Notes under the pieces: model-generated | Seen by the model: the letters and a program-made list of their open reading frames with translations, nothing else | Told to the model about the DNA's origin: nothing | The model's database searches: none | Made by a program: the position numbers and the translations under genes | Shown: positions 3,407-52,584 of the stretch, one piece after another | Numbering within the stretch: the stretch's first letter is position 1 | Layout of the letters: the number at the start of each line of letters is the position of its first letter | Assembly: GCF_009914755.1 (NCBI RefSeq) | Contig: NC_060931.1 | Strand: one strand, 5' to 3' | DNA length: 64,000 nucleotides | Source: the human T2T-CHM13v2.0 reference genome, Homo sapiens

Positions 3407-4541
3407 AAGATATGCAATTCTTTAATTTAAAAATTCTGCTTTTTCATAGAGCTATCTGTTTCTTTCGCTTTTTTGACTTTTTCTTTATGTCTATCACCAG
3501 CTCTAAAAGCTAACTTTTCGGTGTCAGGAAAGGTGGTGCAGTTTGTGTCACTGCATAAGCATTATTACACATGTGTAACAACAATCATTGCCAGACAGTG
3601 CTTAGGTGCTCAAACAGACTGCAGGACTGTGTCTGACACCTCAGTGTTTCAACACATGCAATTCAAATAGTGCCTCATTAAAATTACAGATTACTGCATG
3701 CCAGGGACTCACATCACTCAACAATACTCAAAACTATGAATGTTAAATCCATAAATGTCACGATTTCATTACAGCAGGAGCTTAGAACTAGAAAGTGTTT
3801 CATTTTCTTAGATATTTTCTGGTGACCACCACTCCCATATACACACACATAGTTTTCTTTTGTGTCATTCCATTGTGGAAAAGTTTTCAAGAGGATTGTT
3901 TTATCTTTGAAAAACATTGCTCTGAAAACCTATGCCAGGTCAATGTGAGTTACATATTTTCAAGGAAGCTTACTCTTCTACTTTTGTCTATGTTTCTTTC
4001 AATCTGCTTCTCTCTTTTTCTCCCTCACATTGCTTTGTTTGTTTTGTTCATGCACAGTATTTATATTTAACTCAGCCCAAGTGTTCATATTATCTTAACT
4101 CAAGATGTAACATGGGGAATTTTTCCAATTAAATATTAATTATTTTCATAGCTAGAATTTTCAATTAAAAAATTCAGGAATCAAATTTAAAAAATATACA
4201 ATGATTAAAGGACATTCATTTGCATTCATGATTTATACAAAGCAAAACTTAGAAAAATGTGTAGGGGAAGTGATCTCTGGTATGTGTGTGATCAATGATC
4301 AATTGCTGTTTTATTTCTTTACTACCTTTTCCATTTTCATTTTTTCCCTTCTCAGGGAGGTATTTTATACCAGGAAGTGTATGTTTTTAACAATGTTCTA
4401 TAGAAAGTGTTGCCTTACTTTATACCTGTAATATTATTACATTGTTTAGGCTCTTGCTACACAGAACATTGCTTATCTAATGCTTTTGCCAACAGTTGAG
4501 GGGTTTCTTTTACTCTAATATTTTCCTTTTTTACTCTTTCT

Positions 4542-6090
<1,549 letters not shown>

Positions 6091-9073
6091 TGTTTCACAG
6101 TATTCAGTACTGAGTTAGCATCACGATATCGTCTTCTAAAGGAATTCCAGTGCATGATATGCCAGTTGAGAATTAAATTAAGTGCTATGGGAGTAAGAAA
6201 AGAACAAATTGGTTTACTTTGAAGTTATATTTTGTCAATGATCAAGAAATGATTGCATCTATAGACTGTTTACCATCTCCTGATTTCTTAACGTAAGAGA
6301 ACAGGGTAGAGTAGTTAGAGAAAAGCATGTAGCAATTTATTTTGAGTATTAATATTCTCCCCTCCAAATATTCTATGTATTTCTTGTATTTTGAGAATTC
6401 AATATAATTTTATTTAAATAATGGGAAAGTTATATTTTAGTTATAAAGTATTTCTTGAGAACACAGCATAACTCATCTGCAATTTATACTGCCTAAAATA
6501 AAGACATTTTGCGGGCCATTTGTATCCCTACCTACCCAAATTACAGAAGAGCACCTCTAGGAGCAACTCCAGAGATCTGAAAACATATGATACAAATCTC
6601 TAAATTAAAGTTTAATAGGAATTTAATTCAAGCTGCCAATAGCAGTCATAATCTACAATGGCTAATGTGACATCAGTGTCCCACGTAAATGAATGGCTTG
6701 TGTAAAGGAAGGATTTGAGAAGGAAAAATATATTTTATCTGTGACCTGTTCGGTGATTCAATCAGGAGTCTTTAGCACTGAATTAGCTTTTCTGCCTCAG
6801 TTCCCCTATTTCCTTAGCACTTAATTATTTTCCTACAGTCTTCACTAAATTAGGGTTCCAAAAAAACTGTTTTAAAAACACACAATGCATAAATGCAATT
6901 TTGATTTAATCAAATTCAGTCATAAAATATTTATGACAATTTCATCATTTATTAATTGCTTTAAGAAAATCTTTGCCCCTCGTCTAGAAACTTTTGTGTA
7001 ATAAAAATACACTATAACTTTAAAAAATTTTAGGAATGACAACTAGAATTAGCAAAACCAAAGCTAAAACCAAACATTTGTTAGGACTGTAAGTTCAGAC
7101 CCTTCTAATTGGTAGGTATTTCTGGAACTAATTATCGGGTACTTTGTTGATTGCTGTCCTGCATGCCAGATTTCTGTTCAGATGAGTTGGTTAGAGCATC
7201 TTATTGTAGAAGGTCAAAACACTTGGTCACCTCTAGGTCTTATGTAATTGCTGATCTTACATAATTAATTGAATAGTTTTAAAAAATCTTATTCTGCAGG
7301 CATAATGAAGCTAGGGATTTGGGGGTGGATCAAAGCAAATCCATCATTGTTTCTGGAAAAGGAAATCAAAATATAAGTCCTGCAAGTGGTAGGTGAGTAA
7401 CATCACCTTTCCAGATGAGGCCGATATAGCACCAAGAACCCTCCCACATGGTTCTTGGGTATGATTCATCACTAACTTGCTCTGTCACCTTGGACAAATC
7501 ACTCAACTCCCCTACATGAAGGCCAAGAGAAACTTGAGGTTACCATGCGAAAGTACTTTCAAAAATTCTATTAAAAATGCCCCCATTGCCTTAGGAAGAG
7601 GGTGCCATTTTATTATGACCTACATATGCAGAAAATTACTAGGAAGTTTGTACTAGGAAAAGACACGAATATCATGGGAAAAATAGCAAGGAAACTATTT
7701 AGCTTAGTAAAATCATAACTGTAGAAATTCTGTAAAATTTTCTTCTAAAGTTTATTAGATTCCACAGTCATAAAAATCTTTAATCTAAAAAAAAGAAATA
7801 ATACACATTTACATAATGTGTACTGTATGCCTGACACTCTTCTAAGTATTTAACCAAAGCTAGGTCTCATCTCTTGAGAAGGTTAATTAGTTTTTGGTTT
7901 TGTTTAGTACCTAGCACTGGGGAGATGACCTCCTAGAACTGCGATTTCAGGTTTAACAAGACTAACCTAAAAAAATTTAGCTCCTGTTCATTCCTGTTGA
8001 TGTTTTGTAATCCATGGCAGAATTTTAGTGTTCTATTTTAAGATTTTAATCTCTGGAAAATTCAAATCCTCTCGAGATTTAGCATGCATGAATGTTTGAT
8101 GCTTTCTGAGAGTTTTCCACAGTAGGTAGAAAGCAAGAAGTATTTCCATGAGTGTCTAATATAGAAGAAGGGGCCAGTGAGCAGAAAGGGATTCACTAAG
8201 AATATCAAACTGAAGAAAAAGAATACAGAGTACTGATTACAGGAAATGAAAAAGGTATCTAAGGTGAGGTATGTAGGAATAAAAAAACTGAGGCTCAAAA
8301 ACCAATTTCCTACTTTATAATGTTTCCTAGGACCCCTGCCTTCATGCTATAAACAGAATAACCTACTAAGTATGACTCTTTAACTTACATATGTTTATCA
8401 GTTTTGTCCCATTTCAAGTTTTCCCTGATAACAAAGGAAGAGAAAAGTTATAGGGATGGGGGTGACAAGAGGTAAATTAAAACTGTTAATTAGCCAAAAG
8501 AAGAGACTATTATCCTGTAAAGAGCATAACATTAAATATAATATTAATTCAGATAACATATTTATTAAGTGCATATATACAAATGGGAAAGACAAGTAAT
8601 AAGTAAATGCAAAATTAAATAGATTGCATACAAAGGAGGTAGAGATGATTGCTAGAGAGGAAATTAAAGAAGAATAAAGCTGAAGTATATTGTTGGTGGT
8701 GGAGTTATTTTAAATGGAGTGACCAGAGAGGGTTCTGTAATCAATTTGTATCGAAGCAGAGACCTAAATGAAGTGGCAGAGGTTGATGTGCAGATGTGTG
8801 AGTGAATAGATTGCCAGGCAGTGAGAACTGTAAGTGCAAAGGCTGTGAGGCAAGTGCATGCTTGGTGTATTCAAAGAATGAAAATACAGTCAGTGCAAAT
8901 GGAGTGATGTATTAGAGGACAAGAGCTGGAGGAAATGAGATTCATGAGGCAATGGGCTCCCGATCACTCATGCCTTGAGGACACTGTAATGACTTTGAGC
9001 TTTACTTTGAAAGTATTGAGAAGCCATTGGAGAGTAAAGTATATTAGTCTGGCTGCTTTGCTCGGACTAGACT

Positions 9074-47329: not shown

Positions 47330-48258
47330 TTGAAATTAGGTATGTTTGTACATCAAAAGACACCCTTAAAGAGGGAAAGAGCAGTCACACAATGGAAGAT
47401 ATTTTAAATAAATAGCTATAGCAAAGGACTTGTATTCAAAATATATAAAGAACTCCTTTAAGTTCATAAAAGTCAGACAACTTAATTTAAAATAGGCAAA
47501 TATTTGAGCAAATACTTTACAAAAGAGAGTATCTAAGAAGCCAAAAAACATGTGAGAAGATGAGTACATTTATAAGTCATCAAGGAAATAGAAATTAAAA
47601 CCACAATGTAATACCACTACATACAAACTAGAAAGGCTAAAATGAAAATTACTGACAACATCACATATTGTTGAGTATGTGGAGTAGGTAGAAATCTCAC
47701 GCACAGCTGATGGGAGTATAAATGGTAAAACTACTTTAGAAAACTATTTGACAGCATCTATTAAAACTCAACACACACGTATTCTCTGTCCCAACAATAA
47801 TATACTCAACAGAAATACTTAACTATTATTATTAAAATACATGCACAAGAGTGTTCATCAAAAACTGAAAAATGGCTCAAATGTCTATCAAGAGTGGAAA
47901 TGAATGAATAAATATATAACTATTATATATTATAATACACTATAAAACAATGAGAAGAAGAAGTTATTGCTAGAGGAATAGCTTTGAACTTGGTGAAATA
48001 CACACTGTAGGCTTCTATTTACATGCAATTCCAAAAAATAGACAAAAGTAATCGATGCCATTAGAAGTCAAGGTGGAGAACGGTACTAGGAAAAGGCACA
48101 AGGAGGCTTCTGGAGTGCCAGTAATATTAAATATTGTGATCTGGAAACTGGTTACATAAGTGTGTTTCAAAGTTCATTGAGCTGTACATTTGTAGTTTAT
48201 GCACTTTCCTGCATGTATGTTATACTTCAATAAAACAACAACAAAAACAAGTTAAAAA
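47330..48258 (+). mobile_element. Old L1 (L1ME/MC) 3' end
   Basis: AAAGGACTTGTATTCAAAATATATAAAGAACTCC...TATGCACTTTCCTGCATGTATGTTATACTTCAATAAAA followed by an A-rich tail. Confidence 0.8.
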
Positions 48259-48304
48259 CCTTAGAGGCTGAGTAAAGCTATTTGATTAAAAATGACTAAA
48301 AGCT

Positions 48305-50802
<2,498 letters not shown>

Positions 50803-51134
50803 CTGCTAAACGGAGCAGGAACAGCAAAACATCTGTATGTTTTTTTTTAATTTTAAAAACTGACTTGGTGAAATCTAGTCAACTTCACTATTTATATCAT
50901 ACTGATATAGCAGAATGTTTTCAGTATGCTTGAAGGTAATGTAAAAACAAAATATAAAACCAAGATCCCTATCTCAAGATTTCCTTGAGAAAGGAAATAG
51001 TGACTGAATTATAGATGAAAATGAAGCAACAATTGTGGAAAAATAAAGACAACAGAGGTCAGACCCATTTATCCTGTTGAGCAAGATCTGTGCCTATTTC
51101 TAATAAAAACACATGAAAAATTAAAAAAAAAAAA
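50803..51134 (+). other. L1 3'-transduced unique sequence (~320 bp) with its own poly(A) signal and tail
   Basis: It lies between the L1 poly(A) and a second A-tail (51123-51134). AATAAA is at 51102-51107. The TSD core GACTAAAAGCT follows at 51135-51145, matching 48294-48304. Confidence 0.85.
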
Positions 51135-52584
51135 GACTAAAAGCTACCATAAATGTCAAGTGTGCCTCACAGAAAAAGTAATGTGTATCTGAAAGTGTCT
51201 AAAATTTATGGGCTGAAAAGGTTAGATCTTTATCAGATTCCAGTGGAACGACTTTGAAAGACGCCCTCTGCTGTTTACACCCCAGGATGGACAGCATGTA
51301 CTATATGCCCGTGGGGAGAAGCCACTAGCAGGAGACAGGATAATCTATATTCTCAAGCTATTAGTCATCTCCAGAATCCATATTAATCCCCTCCCCCAGA
51401 ACACTTCAGCAGGACAGTTCCAGGTTGAGTTCCGCAATTTCAATTGCTACATGCATACTTTTCATAATGTATAGTCAATTGTTGGGGCCTACTTAGGAAG
51501 TAAATCTCTTTTTCAGCCACCAACATGTGGCCAGATGAAATCATCATTGGCTGGTGAACTTGATTGCTTTATTATTTGTATTTCTTTTCAAATGAGGAAG
51601 ATAAAGCCTCCCCAGAGAAAAGATATCCAGATTTCTGAGTTCAGTGTCAATGTGATTACAGGATTTTCACTATCTTTCTCAGACTGATAGTGCAGTGACC
51701 AACATGATATGAAAATAAAGGCAAACATGTAGCAATTCTAAAAACTAAGAAAGCTCCATGAAGCTATCAGAAACACCCAGGAATTTCTAACAGAAAATGA
51801 CAGACAGGCTCAAACTAGAGGCCATAGTTGAAAGGTTAACTCACCACCATAGTATGAGAAATACGCAGCTTTCCATTATAGCAACAGTGACACAGCAGAA
51901 CATTTTTTAAAATCTCATTAAATCAGCAACAATATATATAAAATGAAGAGCAAAATTTTGCAATAAGAGTGGAGAACCCAGGAGTTATGTGATTATTACA
52001 AACATGATAATTCTCTTGAAATAACTTAGAGAAGAAAGCAACTCAAAACAGACCCATTGGGATTCTTTTATTTTTGTAATTTGATATAATTAAGTATTAA
52101 TTGGAAAAATAGTTGAGAATTTTCTTCTCTCTAAATTAAAGCAATATTATGTTCAGTGACATGCTCAGATCTTAATTTTATGATCAATGATATTTGACGT
52201 AATAATCAAGATTTTTTGAAAACATTTTCCTCACTCCCAGAGAGTCATTTCAAGCCTCCTTTTAGTCAATATTTCTACCCTCCACCTTCTGCATCTCTCT
52301 ATTCCCCACAACAGCCAAAAATTATGCTGAATTTTTTTCACTACAAATTACTTGTGTTCATTTTTGAACTTTTGATAATCATATTTAATATTTTGTATTG
52401 AGCTTCTTTTATTTGAAATAGTTTTATTTTTTACATTTTCTGTGTTGTTACATGTATCTGTAGTTTAGTTTTTTAAACTGCTCTGCATATTATATTGTAT
52501 AATATACAGTTCCATTTTCACTTATTCTCCTGATGTTTATTAATTGTTTTGTTGATGGTTAATTGGATTGTTTCCAGTTTTCAA

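What the first reader, a model, noticed from the sequence alone, without database searches (positions are those of the whole stretch)
50803..51145. L1-mediated 3' transduction: ~320 bp of foreign genomic DNA carried in by an L1PA2-like element
Seen: no TSD follows the L1 poly(A), which ends at 50802. Instead there are ~320 bp of sequence with no repeat I recognise, an AATAAA (51102-51107), a second A-tail starting 15 nt later, and only then GACTAAAAGCT. That 11-mer also sits at 48294-48304 directly before the element, within AAAAATGACTAAAAGCT at a canonical TT/AAAA endonuclease site. Known: read-through of the weak L1 poly(A) signal mobilises downstream flank. Inference: this segment is a copy of the 3' flank of a source L1 elsewhere in the genome. 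It tags that once-active locus, and its first bases (CTGCTAAACGG...) should be the source element's own TSD.
Basis: partly seen in the sequence, partly recalled or inferred. Interest (0 to 1): 0.85.

Follow-up and report, generated by a model that had tools for sequence, protein, structure and literature searches.

The report
L1 insertion carrying chromosome 2 DNA
A jumping-gene (L1) copy on chromosome 7 dragged along 320 bases copied from chromosome 2, a well-known side effect of L1 copying, and the chromosome 2 site no longer holds the L1 that did it.

Summary
An L1 3' end with an 11-A run stops at 50802. It is followed by 320 nt of non-repeat DNA (50803-51122), AATAAA (51102-51107), a 12-A tail (51123-51134) and GACTAAAAGCT, which also abuts the element's 5' edge (48294-48304).

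The 320 nt have exactly one other copy in this genome, chr2:78278138-78278455 (11 substitutions and 1 indel, K2P 0.035). That copy is colinear and has no A-tail, so it is the parent.

In CHM13 no young L1 lies upstream of the parental copy. The homology starts right after T/AAAA, an L1-endonuclease-type site, so this looks like the empty site of a donor L1 that was lost.

48305-49798 is antisense ORF2 and 49799-50802 is sense, with 5 nt of L1 missing between the arms. This is the twin-priming pattern.

One target-primed reverse transcription event of a read-through L1 transcript explains all of this. It is a textbook, common phenomenon. No sibling copies were found. Orthologous ape loci could not be checked with these tools. 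Interest is low.

The parts
48288..48304 (+). 5' target-site duplication. The perfect 11-mer GACTAAAAGCT is at 48294-48304. The extended 17-mer AAAAATGACTAAAAGCT matches the 3' copy at 16 of 17 positions and contains the TTTTT/AA-type endonuclease site on the bottom strand.
   Evidence: family D3
48305..49798 (-). Inverted 5' arm of the L1, read as antisense ORF2 (reverse-transcriptase region). Its stop-free part matches ORF2p residues 574-984, and the whole arm spans about residues 517-1010. It carries stop codons, a frameshift near its ORF2-C-terminal end and FADD changed to FADN. It is decayed.
48389..48403 (.). A 13-nt insertion, duplication-like (CCTGAATG recurs), inside the inverted arm relative to three other genomic L1 copies.
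   Evidence: family D8
49799..50791 (+). Sense 3' arm of the L1: ORF2 from about residue 1013 to its end, plus the 3' UTR. It has GAG at the triplet that I recall as the Ta/pre-Ta diagnostic. The element's own AATAAA is at 50789-50794.
50792..50802 (+). Internal A-run of 11 A. It is the donor L1's genomic A-tail, and up to 4 of the A may belong to the chr2 target (AAAA precedes CTGC there).
50803..51122 (+). Transduced single-copy DNA, copied from chr2:78278138-78278455 (CHM13): 308 identical positions, 11 substitutions, 1 one-base indel.
51102..51107 (+). The AATAAA poly(A) signal that was used. It is present at the same place in the chr2 parent, which continues with CA and a T/GT-rich stretch. 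An earlier AATAAA at 51042-51047 was bypassed.
51123..51134 (+). Poly(A) tail (12 A) of the read-through transcript. It is absent from the chr2 parent.
51135..51145 (+). 3' target-site duplication, GACTAAAAGCT.

Best explanation
A single L1 retrotransposition event produced all of 48305-51134.

1. A young, ape-specific L1 (L1PA2/3-like) once sat on chromosome 2, in + orientation, directly upstream of what is now chr2:78278138 in CHM13.
2. Transcription ran through the L1's own weak poly(A) signal and through one further AATAAA.
3. The transcript was cleaved and polyadenylated at the next AATAAA...CA site, about 320 nt into the flank.
4. This chimeric RNA was inserted at chr7 by target-primed reverse transcription at an A-rich site. 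A second, internal priming event (twin priming) inverted the 5' part of the L1.
5. The result is TSD, inverted ORF2 arm, sense 3' arm, A11, 320 nt of chr2 DNA, A12, TSD.
6. The donor L1 allele is absent from CHM13 and was most likely never fixed, so only its empty site remains.

What is shown: the anatomy, the single parental copy, the direction chr2 to chr7, the RNA intermediate (a tail at a poly(A) site) and the single pair of TSDs.

What is inferred: that an L1 sat at the chr2 site, and the age of very roughly 5-18 Myr.
For: - Anatomy and TSDs at the exact ends.
- Exactly one other genomic copy of the 320 nt, on chr2, at 97% identity (2 of 2 candidates scored).
- The chr2 copy has no A-tail and continues past the cleavage site. 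The chr7 copy replaces that continuation with A12 about 15 nt after AATAAA, at the position of a CA in chr2.
- The 106 nt upstream and the 947 nt downstream of the chr2 copy have no copy at chr7 or elsewhere. The upstream search gave self only. The downstream search gave self plus 4 weak matches of at most 97 nt at 74-85% identity.
- In chr2 the homology starts right after TAAAA. Only 0.5% of positions in the 9-kb chr2 locus are preceded by that pentamer.
- The two L1 arms are adjacent in L1 coordinates, with 5 nt missing between them. The last 4 nt of the TSD pair with L1 at 3 of 4 positions at the inverted arm's start. This fits twin priming.
- Divergence is coherent with one old event. The segment differs from its parent by K2P 0.035. 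The L1 differs at 4 of 993 sites (sense arm) and 21 of 1478 sites (inverted arm) where all, or all but one, of the compared copies agree.
- 3' transductions and 5' inversions are described as common L1 outcomes, and donors absent from the reference genome are documented (passages of PMC10760644; passages of PMC6425141).
Against: - No young L1 lies at the chr2 site in CHM13. In the 9 kb searched there are only old L1 pieces of 72-79% identity, the nearest ending 243 bp upstream. The donor is therefore inferred and not seen.
- No sibling or orphan transduction from the same flank exists in this genome to corroborate a once-active donor.
- The A-run at the chr2 boundary would also be favoured by a microhomology-guided template switch, so it does not discriminate strongly.
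- With the perfect 11-nt TSD, the bottom-strand nick would fall at GTC/AT, which is not canonical. The canonical site needs a 17-nt TSD with one later substitution.
Confidence: 0.9

Rival explanations
1. Bipartite chimeric retrocopy made by template switching. ORF2p first copied the 3' end of a polyadenylated host transcript from chr2. At the A-rich spot GGUAAAA/CUGC it jumped onto the poly(A) tail of an ordinary L1 mRNA. In this reading no L1 ever sat at the chr2 site.
For: The chr2 site holds no young L1 in CHM13. The junction lies at an A-run that could give microhomology with an L1 poly(A) tail. There are no sibling transductions. The product (L1-An-X-An inside one TSD pair) would look identical.
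Against: From my own knowledge, not from a call: described template-switch chimeras are far rarer than 3' transductions and typically join small RNAs such as U6 to L1 or mRNA 3' parts. 3' transduction is a common outcome, about 20-25% of insertions in the studies seen (PMC10760644 passages; abstract of PMC13009371 in the listing). The boundary sits at T/AAAA, as an L1 insertion site would (0.5% of positions by chance). I could see no annotation for chr2, so whether a host transcript ends there is untested.
Confidence: 0.06
2. Two independent events. An older retrocopy or orphan transduction of the chr2 segment was present first, and an L1 later landed exactly at its 5' edge.
For: None specific. 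It would explain two A-tails in tandem.
Against: The L1 part has no TSD of its own: no shared word of 6 nt or more between 48270-48304 and 50795-50835. The only TSD pair brackets the composite. The L1 5' end would have to coincide to the base with the older insert's 5' TSD.
Confidence: 0.02
3. DNA-level duplication (segmental duplication, or filler DNA at a break) between chr2 and chr7, unrelated to L1.
For: Only that the two loci share 320 nt.
Against: The chr7 copy ends in a 12-A tail that is not in chr2. The tail is placed at a CA about 15 nt after AATAAA, which marks an RNA intermediate. The copy starts exactly at an L1 A-run and lies inside one TSD pair.
Confidence: 0.01

Closest known systems
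L1 (LINE-1) 3' transduction by read-through of the L1 poly(A) signal (Moran et al. 1999, Goodier et al. 2000 and Pickeral et al. 2000 recalled; review PMC10760644 read in passages)
   Same: L1 3' end with a short A-run, then unique DNA ending in AATAAA plus a poly(A) tail. One TSD pair surrounds the composite. A colinear parental copy lies elsewhere in the genome.
   Different: The donor L1 is not present at the parental locus in this assembly (empty site). No other offspring of the same donor are found.
Twin-priming 5' inversion of L1 insertions (Ostertag and Kazazian 2001, recalled; paper not held; described in PMC10760644 passages)
   Same: An inverted 5' arm joined to a sense 3' arm. The arms are adjacent in L1 coordinates with a small loss (5 nt). 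There is partial microhomology between the target end and L1. Everything lies inside one TSD pair.
   Different: Nothing of note. The combination with a 3' transduction in one insertion is simply two common outcomes together.
Transduction families with non-reference donors (for example PMC6425141, passages read)
   Same: The transduced tag points to a donor locus that the reference assembly does not show as filled.
   Different: Those families are young, polymorphic L1-Ta elements with several offspring and a donor that can still be genotyped. Here the event is millions of years old, with a single offspring, and the donor was presumably lost.
Template-switch chimeric retrocopies (U6-L1 type; recalled)
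   Same: Two RNA-derived parts in one orientation inside one TSD pair.
   Different: Here the 5' part is an L1 with its own A-run and the 3' part is an internal piece of unique DNA. The boundary in the parent sits at an endonuclease-type site.

Membership tests
L1 3' transduction | An L1 3' end with its own poly(A) signal and A-run is followed directly by non-L1 DNA | tested here: met
   The L1 homology runs to 50802. AATAAA is at 50789-50794, followed by 11 A and then unique sequence. The segment has 2 copies genome-wide.
L1 3' transduction | The extra DNA ends with a poly(A) signal and a poly(A) tail that are not encoded at the parental locus | tested here: met
   AATAAA at 51102-51107 is followed by A12 at 51123-51134. 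The chr2 parent has the same AATAAA but continues CATTTATGATG....
L1 3' transduction | Target-site duplications flank L1 plus extra DNA together, not the L1 alone | tested here: met
   GACTAAAAGCT is at 48294-48304 and 51135-51145 only. No repeat of 6 nt or more links the 5' flank with the bases after the first A-run.
L1 3' transduction | A colinear parental copy of the extra DNA exists elsewhere in the genome | tested here: met
   chr2:78278138-78278455, 97% identity over 319 nt.
L1 3' transduction | A donor L1 in the same orientation lies directly upstream of the parental copy, in the reference or in some other genome or haplotype | tested here: inconclusive
   Absent in CHM13: only old L1 pieces of 72-79% identity in the 9 kb upstream, none adjacent. 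The boundary is at T/AAAA, as expected of an empty L1 site. Other human haplotypes and ape genomes cannot be searched with these tools. Donors missing from a reference are accepted in the literature (PMC6425141 passages).
Twin-priming 5' inversion | The 5' arm is in antisense and the 3' arm in sense, adjacent in L1 coordinates with a small deletion or duplication, inside one TSD pair | tested here: met
   Against a full-length genomic copy used as a ruler (L015), the inverted arm covers ruler positions 4377-5858 and the sense arm covers 5864-6870. Five nt are missing between them. ORF2p residues are 574-984 (stop-free part) and 1013 onward.
   GAG is present at the triplet that I recall as ACA in Ta and ACG in pre-Ta. 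GAG occurs in 6 of 9 and ACG in 3 of 9 of the closest copies. The sense arm is 98.3-98.6% identical to the closest copies. No subfamily library such as Dfam or RepeatMasker was at hand, so L1PA2 and L1PA3 were not separated.
Template-switch chimeric retrocopy | The 3' part derives from an independent host transcript, and no donor L1 was ever present at its locus | not testable with these tools
   No annotation or transcript data for chr2:78.278 Mb was available, and no other genomes were available.

The most novel reading that the evidence does not exclude
No L1 ever sat at chr2:78278138. Instead ORF2p copied the 3' end of a polyadenylated chromosome 2 transcript and then switched template onto the poly(A) tail of an L1 mRNA. 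That would make a bipartite L1-host chimera which mimics a 3' transduction. Empty-site 'transductions' in reference genomes would then overstate read-through and understate template switching.
Probability: 0.06. Interest if true: 0.35.

Novelty: already known. Interest (0 to 1): 0.15.

Why it matters
This is a clean worked example of a known process. L1 read-through moved 320 nt of chromosome 2 DNA to chromosome 7, and the insertion also shows a twin-priming inversion.

Its only modest extra value is as a fossil tag. It records an L1 allele at chr2:78.278 Mb that was active roughly at the time of great-ape divergence and is missing from this human genome. That allows a simple comparative test of whether the donor was lost or sorted into another ape lineage.

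The insertion lies in a gene-poor stretch: no gene is annotated within 100 kb, according to the hub's note. Nothing suggests a functional consequence.

Tried and rejected
- Sibling or orphan transductions from the same donor. I searched the genome with the 320-nt tag, the 1.5 kb downstream of the chr2 copy, its unique first 947 nt and the 106 nt upstream. None were found. In one search, 39 of the 40 scored hits were a repeat of about 435 nt.
- A TSD for the L1 alone. None was found.
- A young L1 near the chr2 copy. BLAST of the 9-kb locus against a full-length L1 gave only three old fragments.
- An L1 5'-UTR motif, used to check that the ruler copies are full length. It gave no exact hit in any of the 3 copies, and I did not pursue it. 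The motif was recalled from memory and may be inexact.
- Subfamily naming. Pairwise comparisons with the nearest copies cannot separate L1PA2 from L1PA3.
- A 16-nt exact match between L1 ORF2 (50024-50039) and the end of the transduced segment (51105-51120) (D1). It is also present in the chr2 parent and is A-rich. I treated it as coincidence.
- Earlier findings of this scan were not open.
- The classic papers (Szak 2003, Pickeral 2000, Ostertag and Kazazian 2001) are not held. What I say about them is recalled. Whether this particular insertion is listed in their tables, or in any T2T repeat catalogue, was not checked. Searches turned up no paper naming this locus, but none of them was a search by coordinates.

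Full report
**1. Observation**

Reading the window and a script confirm each stated feature.

- The L1 3' UTR ends in AATAAA (50789-50794) and an 11-A run (50792-50802).
- The next bases are CTGCTAAACGG.
- AATAAA occurs at 51042-51047 and at 51102-51107.
- Fifteen nt after the second AATAAA a 12-A run begins (51123-51134).
- It is followed by GACTAAAAGCT (51135-51145).
- In the whole window this 11-mer occurs on either strand only there and at 48294-48304. The upstream copy is the last stretch before L1 homology begins.
- No word of 6 nt or more links 48270-48304 with 50795-50835, so the L1 on its own has no TSD.

A match of 11 bases at two fixed positions has a probability of about 5.5e-7 at this composition. 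As a control, the repeat finder on 48150-51300 lists four other exact 11-13-nt direct repeats and one exact 16-nt repeat. The position at both ends of the insert carries the weight, not the mere existence of a repeat. Extended to 17 nt, the repeat matches 16 of 17 (D3).

**2. The segment has one parent, on chromosome 2**

A search of the window's own genome with 50803-51122 found two places, with 2 of 2 candidates scored: the segment itself and chr2:78278138-78278455, + strand, 97% identity. A pairwise alignment gives 308 identities, 11 substitutions (6 transitions, 5 transversions) and a one-base indel. K2P is 0.035.

The direction of copying is clear.

- At chr2 the sequence runs on at both ends into single-copy DNA. 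The 106 nt upstream gave self only. The 947 nt downstream gave self plus four weak matches of at most 97 nt.
- At chr7 the segment starts at an L1 A-run.
- At chr7 it ends where chr2 reads ...GAAAAATCA/TTTATGATGTATTTT. That is a CA about 15 nt after AATAAA, followed by a T/GT-rich stretch. From there chr7 carries A12 instead.

This is the mark of cleavage and polyadenylation of an RNA, so the copy went through an RNA intermediate.

**3. The chr2 site is empty**

No young L1 precedes the parental copy in CHM13. BLAST of the 9 kb ending just past it against a full-length L1 gave three old fragments of 72-79% identity, the nearest ending 243 bp upstream.

The homology begins right after ...CATGGT/AAAA. 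On the bottom strand this reads TTTT/AC, close to the L1 endonuclease preference (TTTT/AA, recalled). Only 0.5% of positions in that 9-kb locus are preceded by TAAAA.

The simplest reading is the pre-integration allele of a donor L1 that was active and later lost. A donor missing from a reference genome is a documented situation (PMC6425141, passages).

No other offspring of this donor exist in CHM13.

**4. The L1 body is 5'-inverted**

The finding as given to me does not mention this.

- Against three genomic L1 copies, 48304/5-49798 aligns in antisense. Identity is 96.4-97.0%, with 30-35 mismatches and 13-23 gap columns over about 1495 columns.
- 49799-50802 aligns in sense, at 98.2-98.5% identity with 14-15 mismatches.
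- On the ruler copy the arms cover 4377-5858 and 5864-6870. They are adjacent in L1, with 5 nt missing between them.
- Translated, the stop-free part of the inverted arm matches human ORF2p residues 574-984 (E about 1e-270). The sense arm matches from residue 1013 onward.
- The end of the inverted arm that abuts the 5' TSD is the one nearest the sense arm in L1 coordinates, as twin priming predicts.
- The last four target bases (AGCT) pair with L1 at three of four positions.
- The arm carries stop codons, a frameshift, a 13-nt duplication-like insertion near 48389-48403 and FADD changed to FADN. This is ordinary decay.

5' inversions and 3' transductions are both described as common outcomes of L1 insertion (PMC10760644, passages).

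**5. Age and subfamily**

K2P 0.035 between the segment and its parent is about the size I recall for human-orangutan divergence. The Poisson 95% range is 5.5-19.7 substitutions. That gives roughly 5-18 Myr at 0.17% per Myr per lineage, a rate I recall from L1 dating work, and more at slower rates.

The L1 differs at 4 of 993 sites in the sense arm (9 comparators) and at 21 of 1478 sites in the inverted arm, counting sites where all, or all but one, of the compared copies agree. For the inverted arm I used 5 comparators, because 4 of the 9 loci covered less than 90% of the arm and were dropped. A further 9 and 7 differences lie at sites where the comparators disagree among themselves. The comparators were the most similar copies of 3477 candidates, 40 of them scored, so these counts are biased low.

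The element has GAG at the triplet I recall as ACA or ACG in human-specific L1. Among the nearest copies, 6 of 9 have GAG and 3 of 9 have ACG. 'L1PA2-like' is reasonable, and L1PA3 is not excluded.

An event this old cannot have a donor still segregating by ordinary drift. The donor was therefore probably lost from the human lineage. This is inference.

**6. Mechanism and rivals**

The best explanation, at about 0.9, is a read-through transcript of a chr2 donor L1. It was polyadenylated at the second downstream AATAAA and inserted at chr7 by target-primed reverse transcription with twin priming.

The main rival, at about 0.06, is a template switch from a chr2 host transcript onto an L1 mRNA tail. 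It gives the same product and also likes an A-run at the junction. Rarity (recalled) and the endonuclease-type site count against it. I could not see chr2 annotation.

Two separate insertions, or a DNA-level duplication, are disfavoured by the single TSD pair and by the untemplated tail.

One wrinkle remains. With the perfect 11-nt TSD the nick would fall at GTC/AT, which is not canonical. The canonical TTTTT/AA site gives a 17-nt TSD that needs one later substitution at 48293 or 51134.

**7. Verdict**

It is a textbook phenomenon that affects a sizeable share of L1 insertions: about 20-25% in the studies seen (passages; abstract listing). The only added points are the empty donor site and the inversion. 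Interest is low.

The decisive comparative checks, on ape and pangenome alleles at both loci, could not be run here.

Noticed in passing
window 50024-50039 and 51105-51120: An exact 16-nt word (A-rich, AAAAACACATGAAAAA) is shared between the L1 ORF2 sense arm and the end of the transduced segment. It overlaps the poly(A) signal that was used and is also present in the chr2 parent. It is probably a coincidence of A-rich sequence.
   Followed up: partly
window 48389-48403: A 13-nt duplication-like insertion in the inverted L1 arm. It may explain why NCBI's repeat mask starts only at 48402 and leaves the first ~100 nt of the element unmasked.
   Followed up: partly
L002 2772-3206 (chr2:78279409-78279843): About 950 nt downstream of the parental segment lies a repeat of about 435 nt, with many genomic copies at 87-91% identity (39 of 40 scored hits). 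Its size fits a solo LTR. The family was not determined.
   Followed up: no
L003 6848-7894 (chr2:78276848-78277894): Old L1 3'-end fragments (72-79% identity to a young L1) lie in the same orientation a few hundred bp upstream of the parental segment. They are far too diverged to be the donor.
   Followed up: partly
window 51042-51047: A first AATAAA, 240 nt into the transduced DNA and conserved in the chr2 parent, was bypassed by the read-through transcript in favour of the one at 51102.
   Followed up: no
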